Part shown: positions 1 to 6,000 of the stretch, piece by piece
Layout: each line of letters starts with the position of its first letter
Numbering within the stretch: position 1 is the stretch's first letter
From: Phallusia mammillata
Lineage: Eukaryota
Assembly (NCBI GenBank): GCA_965637545.1
Contig: OZ281498.1
Span: 8,556,001-8,620,000 of the forward strand
Direction: 5' to 3'
Length of the DNA stretch: 64,000 nucleotides
Program-made: the position numbers

Positions 1-3000
1 ACTTTACAACCATGACTTTTCGTTCCATGGGATTTATATGCTGCTTTTGCGACATATGGTATCGAGCGGTGTAACTTTACTGTTCCATGTGTTCTCATGA
101 TTCAGTAACTATTGGAAGCACATATTCAGTGTCGTTGGTACATGTTCCCGTCTTCCTGATATGTTCCAACAGCCTGATCATAAGACAGGCTGTTGCGTAA
201 ACCGGGTGTTTCGAAATAGTTGTGCAATCCATTGCAGTGCTGCATATCTTTGCAAGCGTTTAACTTAAAACAAACTAATAACTGATGTGAGTAAAAGAAG
301 GTACTGTTTTCCAATGATCGCACGAAAAACGAGTATCAGTTTAAAAGCCAATGTTTTATCGTTGATCTCTTCTCTTTTCCATCGTATCCTTTCCTTGAGA
401 TAAATGAGACTTGATGTGTGTTGCGTAACCAGAATAAAAGACAAGAACTAAATTGATCTTTTGTGGATCATGTCGGCTCTAAGCAGCAAGCGTTAAGAAT
501 CGTAATAATGAACTTACTCGCTACTGCAGACGACCGATACGAGCCACGAGAAGCAGAAGAAACAACGAGCTTTCAAGTAAACAATAACACAGCGCGCGCG
601 CACCCTCGCCCCCGTACATGCCTTAAATCAGTGTTCTTTTCAATTTTAACGAAAATACCAAGGAAACATGTTTGAAAACTCTGCGAACAGCGTATTTCGT
701 GCGAAAAAAATAGAAGAAATTCCTACAACTTTCACTGAGCGACTAAAAAATAATGCATTTTTTCGAAAACTTGCGACGCCGGTATAAATAAGTATTGGTT
801 CTGGGGAATTCCCTCAATACTTCGCTTCATGGCAAGTCTCTCAATTCGCTTTATTTCGTTTTTGCAATTTGCACTCGACAAAATTTTGTTCGCTCTTACC
901 TCGTTGAAGCGAGTGCAAAGAAAAATGACTTACCTTACGACACGTTGCCCCAGTGTAAAGATTTGTACTGAACAAAGAATCGTTGCATTAAATCGACAAC
1001 GCTCGTGACCGAATTCGCGTCAAGCGAGTCATGACGTCACAAAGTCGAGTCACGAATCACCAAACCGTCTACTCACGAACCACTCGATCATGAAGCGAGT
1101 AGGAAGCCATTCTGACGCACTCGCTCAGTTTTCAGTTGGCCAGCATTGCTTTTTGCAATCGTTAAGCCAGGTAAGAGTTTTTTCAGACCAGAGAGTTATA
1201 TATTTTTATTTGTTTGTTACTAAATAAGAGAGTTGTCAAATGGATTTAGCGTTTGTTTTGCATTTTATTTTATATTAATTACACTATGTTTTATTGACCT
1301 TAAGCAAGAAAATTAAACACTCTTTAAGATTCAAAAAACAGACAAATCTTTACATCAGCATTTGTCAACTAAAGTAGTCAAAGTAGCACAATAGTCCTGA
1401 CTGAGATTATACGTTTGTAAGTAATCATGTTTCACATTTTACAGACTACTGGTGGTACTGTACCAATTTACATTGCCTTGTGTCTTGGTTTTGGAGCATT
1501 GTTTGAATGAAGGACCAAACTAACATGTTTTATTCAAATGACACAGATGACATAAATGGCAACATGATGATTGTAAATGATGTTTTGTGCTTCATTAATA
1601 ATCACATGTCGACAATCAGTGACAGATCAATAAGAAAGCTTTGCATGGAGACTTACACTCCATTTGCCATTGGCCAGGGACTGCAAGAGCTTCAAAATGC
1701 TTTGGCAAAGTTAGACAAAAATGCAGATTATTCAATAAGTAACAACACTATTACTGAAAATTGCATTGATAATATTATTTTTTTGCTGCGACAAGAGCCT
1801 TTGTCACAGGTTCAGATTGTTTCAAATGGCCGTCACTTTCCAAGGTTTGATGCATACAGTGATATGCTGCAAGTGTCGTCTTTGCTGGATGAAATGAAAG
1901 AGTTGAAGTACCTTGTAAAAGACATGCACACACAACTGAAATCTGAAATGACAACTGTTCAAACAGAACTTTTGTCACTGAAGCAGCAAATCCAATCAAA
2001 TACCAACATGGCTGTTGTGGACCAATCAGTGCCTACAGTTGCAAGCAAAGAATTGAACAAAGGTACGATATACAGCATATATTTAAAATAATTGTGAATT
2101 ATGTTTATATTTCAATCCGTAACCTGGTAATACACACACACAGTTACCTAATTTATTATATTTAAATGCTGATGTATATATATATATGAGAGTAAATAAA
2201 AATTTTGGCTAAATAGAAAAATTTGTTCAAAATGAGAATTGCACACAGTATTTTTTCGCCTTCTTGCTTTTGAGAAAACTTAATGAGTTATCTCAGAAAC
2301 CTTGCTTTTATAATATCGTTCAAACATTATTAACAGATAAAGCAGCCACCATTACTGTGACAAAAGCAAGCCAAAAAGCTAGGAGCCTTGACATGATTGT
2401 GCCCGCATTGCGTCAGAGAGTAGAAAAAAATGTTACAACTCAATCAACAACTGGTAGTCCTGATGCAGATGTGCAAGGTGAATGTGGTTGTCACAAAAAA
2501 TGTTTGTAAGAAAATGTATTTATTTTATAACAAGCTTTGTGCCAGTTCTGTCATTGACCCAGCTACTTTTTAGGACTTCGTATGTTTGTTGTATATATGT
2601 TTTTTACCTTTTTTCGGTTTTGGACATGTTTTTATGGATATCATTTTAACAACCAAACGTTGTCTCTATTTATTTTTTAACTGTTTTTTGTTTCAGAAAA
2701 GAATGTTTCTCCATTATTTATGTTGCCACTACCTGAAAGTGAAACGCTATCAAAACCAATTATATATTTGGACAAGGAAATTAAATCAGAAGAGATTGAA
2801 TTAACTAGTGATGGTAAAACTCACTTGGTTTTTCTTGTGTTTTAAATGTAGAAGTTATAAATGAAATTGTGCAACACTTAAACACCAATTCCATTTTCAG
2901 GGTGCTAAACAAATTGGTTTTAAACTGCTATTCTTACTTTTAAATTACTTTATTCTGTATCTGACAGATGCTGTACCAAGTAATGATGAGGACACAACCA

Positions 3001-6000
3001 ATATCTCAGTCTTGGTAGGTCAAACTTTGCATTGAAATAAAGCTAGATATGTAAACAGATATTGGTCGGCATTTTAGGACAATTCAATTGTGGATGATGA
3101 CATTGATTGTGTTTCAATGATTAAAGATAATGATGTACCATCTTTAACACTTGTAAGTATTTCTGTCAGTCTGCTATAGTTGTTTTTAGACCCACACATA
3201 GATTTTGATTAGACCGCAAAAAGTCTCTTTAACAATATTTTTATGCAAAAAATTTTTTTGGGCTGTTTCCCAAAAGTTTTTTGGCCAATTTACTGATTAG
3301 CATGGCAAGGTTTCTTCGTTTTAAGCTTGTTGTGACTCGTGTAAAGGGTAGCATTTTATTGTATTTCACATTCAAAGTGGTAAAAATGCTATTAAACGCA
3401 ATCAGCCTGTATCTTAATTACAAGGTAAAATTTAAGCTAAGCTCTGTGTGCAACCAACAGGCCATAACCAATCAGCTAAGAAAAAGGAATATCACACAAA
3501 TAGTTTAGCATTAAAGGGACAGTTTAAAATAATTAGTGTGAGTGCCAAAGCTCTAAACTAGTTTTTAATTAAATTACTTGCTGTTAGCTAGCTGTTAGCT
3601 ACTCATTTCACGAAGACGGGTTTGTTTTTCATGGGAAACATGAAAGTAAAAAAGAGTGAGATCTTATTGTATTTAATTTACTATCACCCAATTTTTTCAT
3701 GATTAAGCGTTTTTTGTTAACAGACCTATAAACGCGATATGACCACTAACTACAATCGGCGCCCCAGAGTAACGACGTTGATGTCACGGACGTCGACGAA
3801 ACGGGGTGTAAAGCACACGTGTCACATTTGCGGTTACCAGAGCAACCGTACTGACGTCACGCGTCACGTGAGGATTCACACCGGCGAAAAACCATATCCT
3901 TGCTCGGTTTGCGGAAAAAGATTCGCGTTGGGCAGTAATAAACTGAAACACGAAAGGAAGCATCATTTAAAAAAGGACCAGAAAAGGAAATGATCTGCGG
4001 CAAAGTCAAAAAACACAAGTTGTCCAACCTATTGTTACGCAATAAAGCCTATGTAGCCATTTTGTGTCCAAAATTATACTGTGGATAGAGAAAAATAACA
4101 CATAAATTGTCCGATTTTTACAAACTGGACAGCGTGGAGGCGAATTTGATTCACCAAATTGAATGAAAATTTCGGGTTCTAACATTTCAACGCAATATTA
4201 AAAGCTAAATTGTTGTTTTTCACGTAAATTTGGCTGCTTAATTTTCATGTAAACTTTAAATATTTGCGTTCAGCGTGCATTATCACGATTAAATGTTAGA
4301 ACCCAAAAGTTTTATTCAATTTTACCTATGAAATTTGCGTTAAATCCCACCAGTTTGTAAAAATCAGACAATTTATGTGTTTTTCCCTATACCTGCTGTA
4401 TTAATTTGGACACAAAATGGCGTCCATGCGGCTCTATCGCGTAACAATGGGTTGGACTACTTGTGTTTTATATATACTTTGATCTGCGGGAAATATCGGT
4501 TACACACTTGTGTGTTATTTACCTATTTGTCGCAAAAAATGGCCACAGTGTTTAGTCGATCAGCCCTACAAGAATTCACTAGGTTTCAAAAAACGGTAAT
4601 TCACTTAACATTGTCCTGGTTGGCAATTGGAAAGTTGGAATGGTAATCTTTTAATGATGAAAAAAGTGGAAACGAGGTGTTTTTGGAAGATTGCTTTTTA
4701 AGCCCAAGTTTGCAACGGTTTGCCTGGGCATTGTTCGTTTGTTTCTTTTTCTTCAAGGTGAGGTTTGTACCAATCAAATGAATCCCCCTACTTAACTGCA
4801 ACGAGCAGTTGTTTTGTCAATTATTCAAATGTACCACGTTATATTCAACCATTTTCTGTCCTATGTGTATATCGTGCCCAGCGGAAGGTATCGCCTGTTA
4901 TTAGGTAATATGAACTACAATTGGAACAGTTGTGTAATGTAAAGCCTCTGTTCCTGTTTTGTTGGAACCGTTTCTTGAAGATCGATTTAAACATACTGCC
5001 AGCTATTTCTTTTACTTAAGACGATTGGAGCTTTTGTTGTTATTTCAGCGACACTCAAATAAACTGGTACAATTCGTCATAAAAACGAAAGGCAACCGAA
5101 CTTACAATAAAGCCTAACAACGGCCACAAAAACACCACATACAGGCATGAGCAACAATCGTGATAAGGTTTCAAAACTGTTAGTAATCTTTTGTATGAAA
5201 AAAGTCCACAATCCGGACTAAACATTGCTGCTGAATAAAAGAGATCAATGACGGAGTTCTTGTGCTTTTTGAGATTTTCTTGCAAAACAAATTAAATCAT
5301 TAGGGCAAAAAATTACTTCGATTAAAAACCAAGGTCAATTGAAGGATGTGACGCTCCCAGTCATTTGTTTTTAAAATAAAGTTTGATCAAAAAAAGTAAA
5401 ACAAAACTGTTGAGCTGCAAGTCATTCCTCTGTTGCAAGACTTACAACGTGTAAAAGTAAGAACGAAGATACAAAATCAGATCTTGTTAAATGTTTACCA
5501 GCAATCGTGATTCAGTCGTACTAATTTCAGTTTTCTAACACGACTCTTAAAATCTCTCTATCCACATCAGCTACTTCGCGGTCTGTGCTCCTCACAACGC
5601 AAGAACCAGGACTGGAATCCAACTGTTGCTTCACTACATCTTCTATTATAACGCTCTGCTCCATCACACAATACACCACTCGGCCTTGTAGCGAACTCTT
5701 CAGGACGGTTAAAATGTAACAGCCTTCCGGGCTACGGCAAAACGACTCTGTAAGAACAAGAATGATCCTGCGACTGGCTTGCATTTGCAGTAAAATCTGT
5801 TTGACTGGGACAGCGCCGCATTGGGCATCGCGTTCTATCACTGACACATTAGCTTCTCGTTCAGCTAGCATTGGCAGGAGGTGCAAATCCACCCAATCAG
5901 CGGCCGCCACTACACTCGTGTCGAAAGCAACAAACACATGAAATGCAAAACAGTCGTTTTGGCTGCTTACTGGCTGTTGTTCCAAAGGGCAAGCTTCTGG

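What the first reader, a model, noticed from the sequence alone, without database searches (positions are those of the whole stretch)
1507..3993. Cellular gene fusing a LINE-ORF1-like domain to C2H2 zinc fingers
Exon 2 encodes a roughly 100-aa helical domain resembling the N-terminus of invertebrate CR1/L2 ORF1 proteins, followed by a coiled coil. It is spliced in frame through four small acidic exons to a two-finger C2H2 exon, with its own promoter and no ORF2 nearby. This may be a domesticated retrotransposon domain acting as the effector module of a transcription factor (compare SCAN/KRAB/ZAD), possibly for transposon control.
Basis: partly seen in the sequence, partly recalled or inferred. 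Interest (0 to 1): 0.65.

Follow-up and report, generated by a model that had tools for sequence, protein, structure and literature searches.

The report
Ascidian zinc-finger gene with ORF1-like head
This is a real, already catalogued sea-squirt zinc-finger gene whose unannotated front module is clearly related to the front module of a multi-copy, retrotransposon-ORF1-like protein family of amphioxus and insects, although a LINE origin itself could not be proven here.

Summary
The gene model holds. Six coding exons (1507-3993, + strand) have AG/GT sites and matching phases. They tile a public protein, P0001, 'ZF(C2H2)-5 zinc finger protein' of Phallusia mammillata, 395 aa. The last exon carries two C2H2 fingers.

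Exon 2 matches no Pfam family and no solved structure. Its AlphaFold2 model shows a compact helical domain (residues 20-105) and a long helix (115-168).

Only 9 of 1.84 billion representative proteins match exon 2. Five are unnamed short ORFs that form one clade with it. A profile of that clade matches the N-terminal module of an amphioxus/moth family at 99.3% probability, E 1.4e-20.

That family is multi-copy and adds a disordered linker and an RRM-like C-terminal domain. This is an ORF1p-like layout. No adjacent reverse transcriptase or curated LINE match could be tested.

The resemblance is therefore real, but 'LINE CR1/L2 ORF1' and 'domestication' remain inference. I read the module as a self-association or partner-binding head on a two-finger DNA binder. 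Transposon control is untested.

The parts
1445..1506 (+). Putative 5' untranslated start of exon 2. AG lies at 1443-1444 and an in-frame TGA at 1504-1506. A putative non-coding exon 1 would end at 1170, with GT at 1171-1172.
   Evidence: Read from the sequence. Inferred only; no transcript data were available.
1507..2062 (+). Coding part of exon 2. The first ATG is at 1507; the public protein starts at the second ATG, 1525. It encodes the N-terminal domain (residues about 20-105) and a long coiled-coil-like helix (115-168). It ends in phase 1, with donor GT at 2063-2064.
   Evidence: Homology to the amphioxus/moth family: (probability 99.3%, E 1.4e-20).
2337..2477 (+). Exon 3: basic linker, 46 whole codons, pI 10.0.
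   Evidence: 46/46 identical to P0001 residues 181-226. No Pfam family.
2697..2813 (+). Exon 4: acidic linker, 38 whole codons, pI 4.5.
   Evidence: 38/38 identical to P0001 residues 228-265.
2968..3014 (+). Exon 5: acidic linker, 15 whole codons, pI 4.05.
   Evidence: 14/15 identical to P0001 residues 267-281. It was too short for the Pfam scan.
3078..3152 (+). Exon 6: acidic linker, 25 codons, pI 4.05.
3724..3993 (+). Exon 7: a basic stretch followed by two classical C2H2 zinc fingers joined by a TGEKPY linker, then a basic tail. The stop codon is at 3991-3993.
   Evidence: zf-H2C2_2 E 4.2e-11; zf-C2H2; 89/89 identical to P0001 residues 307-395.

Best explanation
The locus is a genuine multi-exon cellular gene of an ascidian (Phallusia mammillata or a very close relative). 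It encodes a protein of about 395-401 aa with three parts:
1. An N-terminal module in exon 2: a compact, mostly helical domain followed by a long heptad-patterned helix.
2. A linker of about 125 residues, probably disordered, built from one basic and three acidic mini-exons.
3. A basic C-terminus with two C2H2 fingers.

Shown: the exon 2 module is homologous to the N-terminal module of a multi-copy protein family of amphioxus and moths/arthropods. That family continues with a disordered linker and an RRM-like domain, which is the layout of a retrotransposon first-ORF (ORF1p-like) protein.

Inferred: an ancestor of this ascidian lineage captured the head of such an element as an exon and spliced it to zinc fingers in place of the RNA-binding tail. 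In the present protein the head would act as a self-association or partner-binding module, as the coiled coil does in ORF1 proteins and the SCAN domain does in vertebrate zinc-finger proteins. It would bring together two-finger units, which bind too few bases to be specific alone. The acidic linker may add an activation or interaction surface.

Not shown: that the source element was a CR1/L2 LINE.
For: - Gene reality: canonical splice sites and closing phases. The exons tile the public protein CAB3267995.1 / A0A6F9DYP8. That record differs at 7 residues, so it comes from another molecule than this window.
- Zinc fingers.
- Fold of the head: AlphaFold2 mean pLDDT 75.7, above 85 on average for residues 21-70 and above 90 for 131-160.
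- Small conserved clade: exon 2 plus P0002-P0006 (E 1.8e-34 to 1.3e-8) has 100/100 support.
- Homology to the amphioxus/moth family, tested non-circularly: profile A5 (that clade only) against A4 (amphioxus and moth only) gives probability 99.3%, E 1.4e-20 over 145 columns. Single-sequence hits P0007 (4.6e-5) and P0008 (8e-4) in a library of 1.84 billion agree.
- Mobile-element-like behaviour of that family. 12 of 17 profile hits are distinct Branchiostoma proteins. Two loci on different contigs of one amphioxus genome fall within one 90% cluster. Two moth copies are 370/372 identical on different contigs. One copy sits at residues 1336-1638 of an ABC-transporter gene model. All 30 of 30 Atlas feature hits are arthropod 'hypothetical protein' clusters; the three shown have 63-121 members.
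- RRM-like tail in P0019: beta-alpha-beta-beta-alpha-beta at 304-376 with block pLDDT 79-88. About 20 of the 41 listed Foldseek rows are RRM domains, for example Pes4 RRM3 with TM 0.68 and rmsd 2.8.
- Homology stops at the exon 2 boundary: exons 3, 4 and 7 show no similarity to A4.
- ORF1 proteins built from coiled coil, RRM and N-terminal zinc-binding modules are documented for CR1/L2 LINEs (PMC4120745, Results read).
Against: - No reverse transcriptase or endonuclease was shown next to any family member; no eukaryotic genome context or transposon library was available.
- No family member matches Pfam Transposase_22, RRM or PHD at E <= 0.05.
- Foldseek E-values for the RRM-like tail are weak (best 0.017; 0 hits at E <= 0.001). 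Ferredoxin-like non-RRM folds are mixed in, and L1 ORF1p is not among the rows shown.
- The 'longer' profile search (780-2225 aa) found no ORF1-RT fusion, only P0015, among 7999 scored candidates. This is weak evidence.
- The direction of transfer is not tested. The tree is unrooted, and the ascidian-like clade and the amphioxus/moth clade are simply sisters.
- Whether P0002-P0006 also carry zinc fingers is unknown.
- Oligomerisation, DNA binding and expression are not measured.
Confidence: 0.55

Rival explanations
1. Shared ancient cellular domain. The N-domain plus coiled coil is an old metazoan protein module. It is used independently by an ascidian zinc-finger gene and by an expanded cellular RNA-binding gene family of amphioxus and arthropods. 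No transposon is involved.
For: No RT adjacency, transposon annotation or curated LINE match was obtained for any relative. All named relatives are called 'uncharacterized' or 'hypothetical' by their sources. The two clades are reciprocally monophyletic.
Against: Near-identical dispersed copies, many diverged copies within Branchiostoma, a copy embedded in an unrelated ABC-transporter model, and a coiled coil plus RRM-like layout typical of ORF1 proteins (PMC4120745).
Confidence: 0.25
2. Reverse capture. The module arose in a host gene and a mobile element later acquired it, so the ascidian gene is the donor type rather than the recipient.
For: ORF1 evolution in CR1/L2 is modular and reticulate, with domain shuffling (PMC4120745, abstract and Results). 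The tree gives no polarity.
Against: The RRM-bearing architecture is seen in two distant phyla, chordate amphioxus and arthropods. The zinc-finger fusion is seen only once, in P0001. This argument from distribution is inference only.
Confidence: 0.12
3. Annotation artefact or decaying relic. Exon 2 is a dead transposon fragment, and the public protein is a chance in-silico join.
For: No transcript reads were examined here. I recall, but did not check, that the public record derives from cDNA.
Against: Six exons have perfect AG/GT sites and phases and no internal stops. The public record differs at 7 residues, so it was not predicted from this window. Exon 2 is conserved at 43-48% identity with P0002 and at lower identity with four more ORFs. 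All of these end shortly after the coiled coil, as an exon would. There is no second copy in the window.
Confidence: 0.03

Closest known systems
SCAN-domain C2H2 zinc-finger proteins of vertebrates
   Same: An N-terminal protein-protein interaction domain taken from a retroelement structural protein, placed in front of C2H2 fingers. The SCAN domain is described as derived from the Gag of a Gypsy/Ty3 element (PMC3424704, passage read).
   Different: There is no sequence or Pfam match to SCAN. The presumed source here is an ORF1-like protein with coiled coil and RRM, not an LTR-element capsid. The lineage is ascidian and there are only two fingers. The SCAN dimer fold is recalled, not tested.
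Non-LTR retrotransposon ORF1 proteins (types II and III of Khazina and Weichenrieder, as summarised in PMC4120745)
   Same: The relatives of exon 2 combine an N-terminal Cys-rich stretch, a coiled coil and a C-terminal RRM-like domain, and they are multi-copy.
   Different: The window's gene keeps only the head and coiled coil and has no RRM. There is no Pfam Transposase_22, PHD or RRM hit in the relatives. The globular N-domain is not among the ORF1 modules listed in that paper's Table 1. ORF2 linkage is untested.
L1TD1 (mammalian gene derived from LINE-1 ORF1) and the EKA effector family of powdery mildew (from a LINE ORF1)
   Same: Host genes whose coding sequence comes from a LINE first ORF (PMC4161310, PMC11014241 and PMC4641428; search listings and abstract starts only).
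   Different: As I recall, L1TD1 keeps the RNA-binding parts and stays an RNA-binding protein. Here the RNA-binding tail is replaced by DNA-binding fingers, and the LINE origin is not proven.
KRAB, ZAD and BTB/POZ heads of C2H2 proteins
   Same: The general design of an N-terminal effector or oligomerisation module followed by C2H2 fingers.
   Different: No match to any of these families in Pfam. Their origins are unrelated.

Membership tests
C2H2 zinc finger (Pfam PF00096 / PF13465) | C-X2-C-X12-H-X3-H pattern with a profile score above the curated cut-off | tested here: met
   zf-H2C2_2 at 43 bits (cut-off 40) and zf-C2H2 at 25.9 bits (cut-off 25.2), in two stretches. Both finger patterns are visible in the exon 7 translation.
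C2H2 zinc finger (Pfam PF00096 / PF13465) | Tandem fingers joined by a TGEKP-type linker | tested here: met
   HTGEKPYPC lies between the two fingers in the exon 7 translation.
Unnamed N-domain plus coiled-coil family (amphioxus, moth/arthropod proteins P0007, P0008, P0014, P0016-P0025) | Profile-level homology over the whole module | tested here: met
   hhalign of A5 against A4 gives probability 99.3%, E 1.4e-20 over 145 columns. The secondary-structure order is the same in both models.
Unnamed N-domain plus coiled-coil family (amphioxus, moth/arthropod proteins) | C-terminal RRM-like domain after a disordered linker | tested here: not met
   Exons 3, 4 and 7 show no similarity to A4, and the tail is C2H2 fingers. 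The window's protein therefore shares the head only.
Non-LTR (LINE) retrotransposon ORF1p | Lies directly upstream of an APE/RT ORF2 within a repeated element | tested here: not met
   Window: 0 of 126 ORFs of 75 aa or more match RT or endonuclease families, and there is no second copy of exon 2 in the window. This is expected for a domesticated copy. For the relatives the feature is not testable with these tools.
Non-LTR (LINE) retrotransposon ORF1p | Sequence match to a curated LINE ORF1 (Repbase/Dfam consensus, or Pfam Transposase_22 PF02994) | tested here: inconclusive
   Pfam gave no Transposase_22 hit for exon 2 or for 11 relatives. Repbase and Dfam are not available here. The alignments in the additional files of PMC4120745 could not be seen.
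Non-LTR (LINE) retrotransposon ORF1p | Coiled coil followed by an RRM fold | tested here: inconclusive
   The relative P0019 has a long helix at 146-193 and a beta-alpha-beta-beta-alpha-beta domain at 304-376. RRM chains make up about 20 of the 41 listed Foldseek rows, but the best E is 0.017 and L1 ORF1p is not listed. The window's protein has the coiled coil only.
Non-LTR (LINE) retrotransposon ORF1p | Many dispersed, partly near-identical copies per genome | tested here: inconclusive
   Relatives: 12 distinct Branchiostoma proteins, two loci within one 90% cluster, moth copies 370/372 identical on two contigs, and one copy inside an ABC-transporter model. Genome-wide copy numbers were not countable.
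SCAN / KRAB / ZAD / BTB effector domains | Profile match to the family model | tested here: not met
   exon 2 has only four sub-threshold Pfam hits (best Zw10_N, E 0.0077, 17.2 bits against a cut-off of 26.3), and none is to these families.

The most novel reading that the evidence does not exclude
The head of ZF(C2H2)-5 is a domesticated oligomerisation module of a CR1/L2-type LINE ORF1 protein. It still co-assembles, through the homologous domain and coiled coil, with ORF1 proteins of related active elements, or recognises their DNA through the fingers. The gene would then be an ascidian-specific transposon-control factor and the first LINE-ORF1-to-transcription-factor conversion described.
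Probability: 0.1. Interest if true: 0.8.

Novelty: new variant of a known kind. Interest (0 to 1): 0.45.

Why it matters
Host transcription factors built by capturing transposon protein domains are known from LTR-element Gag (SCAN) and, as I recall, from DNA transposases. Captures from LINE first ORFs are very few. The abstracts listed call L1TD1 the only such mammalian gene and describe one fungal effector family.

If the relatives of exon 2 prove to be LINE ORF1s, three things follow:
- This gene would show that the non-RNA-binding head of an ORF1 protein can be reused as the partner-binding head of a DNA-binding protein.
- It would define a new domain family that currently has no Pfam model and no solved structure.
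- It would give a tractable model, in Phallusia and Ciona embryos, for testing what that head does.

Tried and rejected
- Self-association test (two copies of exon 2): the tool returned 'no answer' (score 0.04, mark 0.32, controls not run). This is neither for nor against binding.
- PDB sequence searches found nothing usable. Exon 2 alone gave 0 hits at E <= 10. Profile A5 gave a best E of 0.17, coiled-coil noise only. Profile A4 gave a best E of 0.34.
- Foldseek with the exon 2 model found 0 hits at E <= 0.001 in both libraries. The best was E 0.87 against PDB and E 0.1 against BFVD, with TM scores below 0.35. The long helix may have hindered a match to the globular part, and the model could not be trimmed.
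- ESM Atlas gave leads only. Exon 2 scored at best 0.90 with low recognition (1438). P0014 returned only unnamed arthropod clusters.
- P0009 (bacterial, PPC/DUF4214 repeats, E 9.8e-4, matching only query residues 32-81) was judged spurious and left out of all alignments. P0007 was left out of A1, A3 and the tree because of its internal duplication. It is a row of A2, the query, where it duly ranks first.
- Literature:
  - 'ZF C2H2 5' with 'Ciona' found 0 papers.
  - Ascidian, domesticated, non-LTR, ORF1, zinc finger found 40 papers holding 4 of the 5 terms. None of the 10 listed mentions ascidians.
  - The amphioxus, ORF1, CR1 search found 3 papers; none was read.
- A PHD reading of the amphioxus Cys-rich N-terminus was rejected: there is no Pfam PHD hit and too few Cys/His residues are visible.
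- Not done:
  - No search or fold was made with the joined exons; all searches were exon by exon.
  - Genome contigs was not scanned because it holds only bacteria and archaea.
  - Metagenome contigs, viral contigs and paper supplements were closed.
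Full report
**What is there**

The window is AT-rich eukaryotic DNA (GC 0.34-0.42) with no N.

On the + strand an open frame starts at 1507, directly after an in-frame TGA, and runs to a GT donor at 2063. Five more exons follow at 2337-2477, 2697-2813, 2968-3014, 3078-3152 and 3724-3993. Every acceptor is AG and every donor GT. The phases (0, 1, 1, 1, 0, 0) close on the stop at 3991-3993.

Every search and fold below used single exons, so whole-protein searches with the spliced model were left out.

**Independent support for the splicing**

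A search with exon 2 alone among longer proteins returned one protein, P0001. It is 395 aa, named 'ZF(C2H2)-5 zinc finger protein' of Phallusia mammillata (UniRef A0A6F9DYP8, CAB3267995.1), with a precomputed zinc-finger Pfam domain.

Local comparison shows that the six exon translations tile P0001 end to end: 1-179, 181-226, 228-265, 267-281, 282-305 and 307-395, with the missing residues being the split codons. There are 6 differences inside those blocks, and residue 306 is L in the window and H in P0001.

The record therefore stems from another molecule than this window and supports the exon chain. Whether it is a cDNA is my recollection, not a result. The organism is an ascidian. P0001 starts at the second Met (1525).

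**The parts**

- Exon 7 carries two classical C2H2 fingers with an HTGEKPY linker: zf-H2C2_2 at E 4.2e-11 and zf-C2H2 above its cut-off.
- Exons 4-6 are acidic (pI 4.0-4.5). Exon 3 is basic (pI 10.0), as is exon 7 (pI 10.7).
- Exon 2 has no Pfam family above threshold (best Zw10_N, 17.2 bits against a cut-off of 26.3) and no PDB sequence match at E <= 10.
- With a 15-row alignment, AlphaFold2 gives mean pLDDT 75.7 for exon 2:
  - a compact unit of strand 20-23, helices 25-33, 39-49, 52-69, 83-95 and 97-101, and strand 102-105;
  - one long helix at 115-168, with pLDDT 93-96 for residues 131-160.
- LIVM residues fill 7 of 8 a/d heptad positions in windows across 117-153.
- Foldseek finds nothing at E <= 0.001 in PDB or BFVD.

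**Relatives**

HMMER against 1.84 billion representative proteins found only 9 hits:
- P0001;
- five unnamed short ORFs, P0002-P0006 (E 1.8e-34 to 1.3e-8, 47-26% identity);
- an amphioxus protein, P0007 (4.6e-5);
- a moth protein, P0008 (8e-4);
- a bacterial repeat protein, P0009, which I reject as spurious.

Exon 2 and P0002-P0006 form a clade with 100/100 support. These ORFs all stop soon after the coiled coil. In five of the six sequences, counting the window, a Gly followed by T, I, M or S sits there, as a phase-1 G|GTA donor read through would give. This is an inference from protein letters only.

A profile search brought 17 proteins. Twelve are distinct Branchiostoma proteins of 152-423 aa.

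A profile of the ascidian-like clade alone (A5) against a profile of the amphioxus and moth proteins alone (A4) gives 99.3% probability, E 1.4e-20 over 145 columns. The match covers the globular domain and the coiled coil. The homology is therefore solid and not circular.

**What the relatives are**

Full-length members have the following order of parts:
- a short Cys-rich N-terminus (amphioxus);
- the shared domain;
- the coiled coil;
- about 100 disordered residues;
- a conserved C-terminal domain.

No member has a Pfam hit at E <= 0.05 apart from one sub-threshold match.

The AlphaFold2 model of P0019 (mean pLDDT 62.6) repeats the head architecture. It folds the tail as beta-alpha-beta-beta-alpha-beta at residues 304-376, with block pLDDT 79-88.

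Foldseek against PDB gives no hit at E <= 0.001. About 20 of the 41 listed rows are RRM domains (Pes4 RRM3 with TM 0.68 and rmsd 2.8; TIAR; IMP3; PID-3/TOFU-6). The rest are other ferredoxin-like folds, and L1 ORF1p is not listed.

The family behaves like a repeat:
- two moth copies are 370/372 identical on different contigs;
- two loci of one amphioxus genome fall within a single 90% cluster;
- one copy sits at residues 1336-1638 of an ABC-transporter gene model;
- all 30 of 30 Atlas feature hits are arthropod 'hypothetical protein' clusters, the three shown holding 63-121 members.

Metcalfe and Casane (PMC4120745; abstract and Results read) describe CR1/L2 ORF1 proteins as modular mixes of PHD, coiled coil, RRM, CCHC and esterase. 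Their type III (PHD plus an occasional C-terminal RRM) is confined to CR1. The layout seen here fits that world, but the shared globular domain is not among their listed modules. Their additional files, which hold alignments, could not be seen.

**What could not be shown**

No tool here holds eukaryotic genome context or a transposon library. Neither ORF2 adjacency nor a Repbase/Dfam match could be tested for any relative.

The profile search among proteins of 780-2225 aa found no fusion to a reverse transcriptase, only P0015, among 7999 candidates. This is weak evidence.

The tree has no root, so the direction of transfer is open.

In the window itself there is no RT or endonuclease: 0 of 126 ORFs of 75 aa or more. 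There is also no second copy of exon 2. Exons 3, 4 and 7 share nothing with the family.

**Mechanism**

Shown: a spliced gene that joins a conserved head, a coiled coil and two fingers.

Inferred: the head was taken from an ORF1-like protein of a mobile element and now serves as a self-association or partner-binding module. Two fingers contact few bases, so multimerisation would provide specificity. This parallels the Gag-derived SCAN domain in vertebrate zinc-finger proteins (PMC3424704, passage read).

The self-association test gave no verdict and counts neither way. A role in transposon control is speculation.

**Comparison and novelty**

The gene itself is already catalogued. The unannotated head domain, its family and its ORF1-like relatives appear not to be described. 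There is no Pfam model, and my searches found no paper.

Abstracts listed call L1TD1 the only known LINE-1-derived mammalian gene and describe a fungal ORF1-derived effector family. I saw listings and abstract starts only for these.

I rate the finding a new variant of a known kind, namely a transposon-derived head on C2H2 fingers. Interest is moderate because the key link to LINEs is unproven.

Noticed in passing
window 4010-4469: A foldback, MITE-like inverted repeat lies directly after the stop codon. The outer arms, 4010-4049 and 4430-4469, are 90% complementary. The inner arms are 116 nt long and 75% complementary. An AATAAA at 4041-4046 lies in the left arm, so the gene's likely poly(A) signal may come from an inserted element.
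   Followed up: partly
window 13324-13436 and 22292-22404: Two copies of a dispersed repeat lie in opposite orientation, 113 nt long and 87% complementary. They also show up as similar ORF translations. Further inverted pairs lie at 17967-18049/20263-20345 and 18329-18393/18472-18536.
   Followed up: partly
window 5530-8745, minus strand: An intronless open frame of 1072 aa has many leucine-rich repeats (LRR_8, E 3.5e-49). By eye its C-terminal part looks like a Toll-like-receptor tail, but no TIR Pfam hit appeared at E <= 1e-4. It converges on the zinc-finger gene's 3' end.
   Followed up: no
window 9549-11435 (minus), 19866-37494 (minus), 53720-55249 (plus): Other neighbouring genes are visible: exons of a copper type II ascorbate-dependent monooxygenase, a long gene with ankyrin repeats and an ion-transport domain (TRP-channel-like), and a 510-aa open frame with TPR repeats and a proline-rich tail.
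   Followed up: no
window 1032-1039, 3852-3859, 26720-26727, 49445-49452: The palindrome TGACGTCA occurs 4 times against 0.7 expected; 0 of 100 shuffles reach 4. One copy lies about 130 bp upstream of the putative exon 1 donor and one lies inside the zinc-finger exon.
   Followed up: no
P0015 (Branchiostoma floridae gene model), residues 1336-1638: An ABC-transporter gene model contains an ORF1-like family copy as if it were coding sequence. Two Branchiostoma belcheri family members are named 'ATP-binding cassette sub-A member 5' by their source although they are only 232-338 aa. This is probably annotation carried over from such a fusion.
   Followed up: partly
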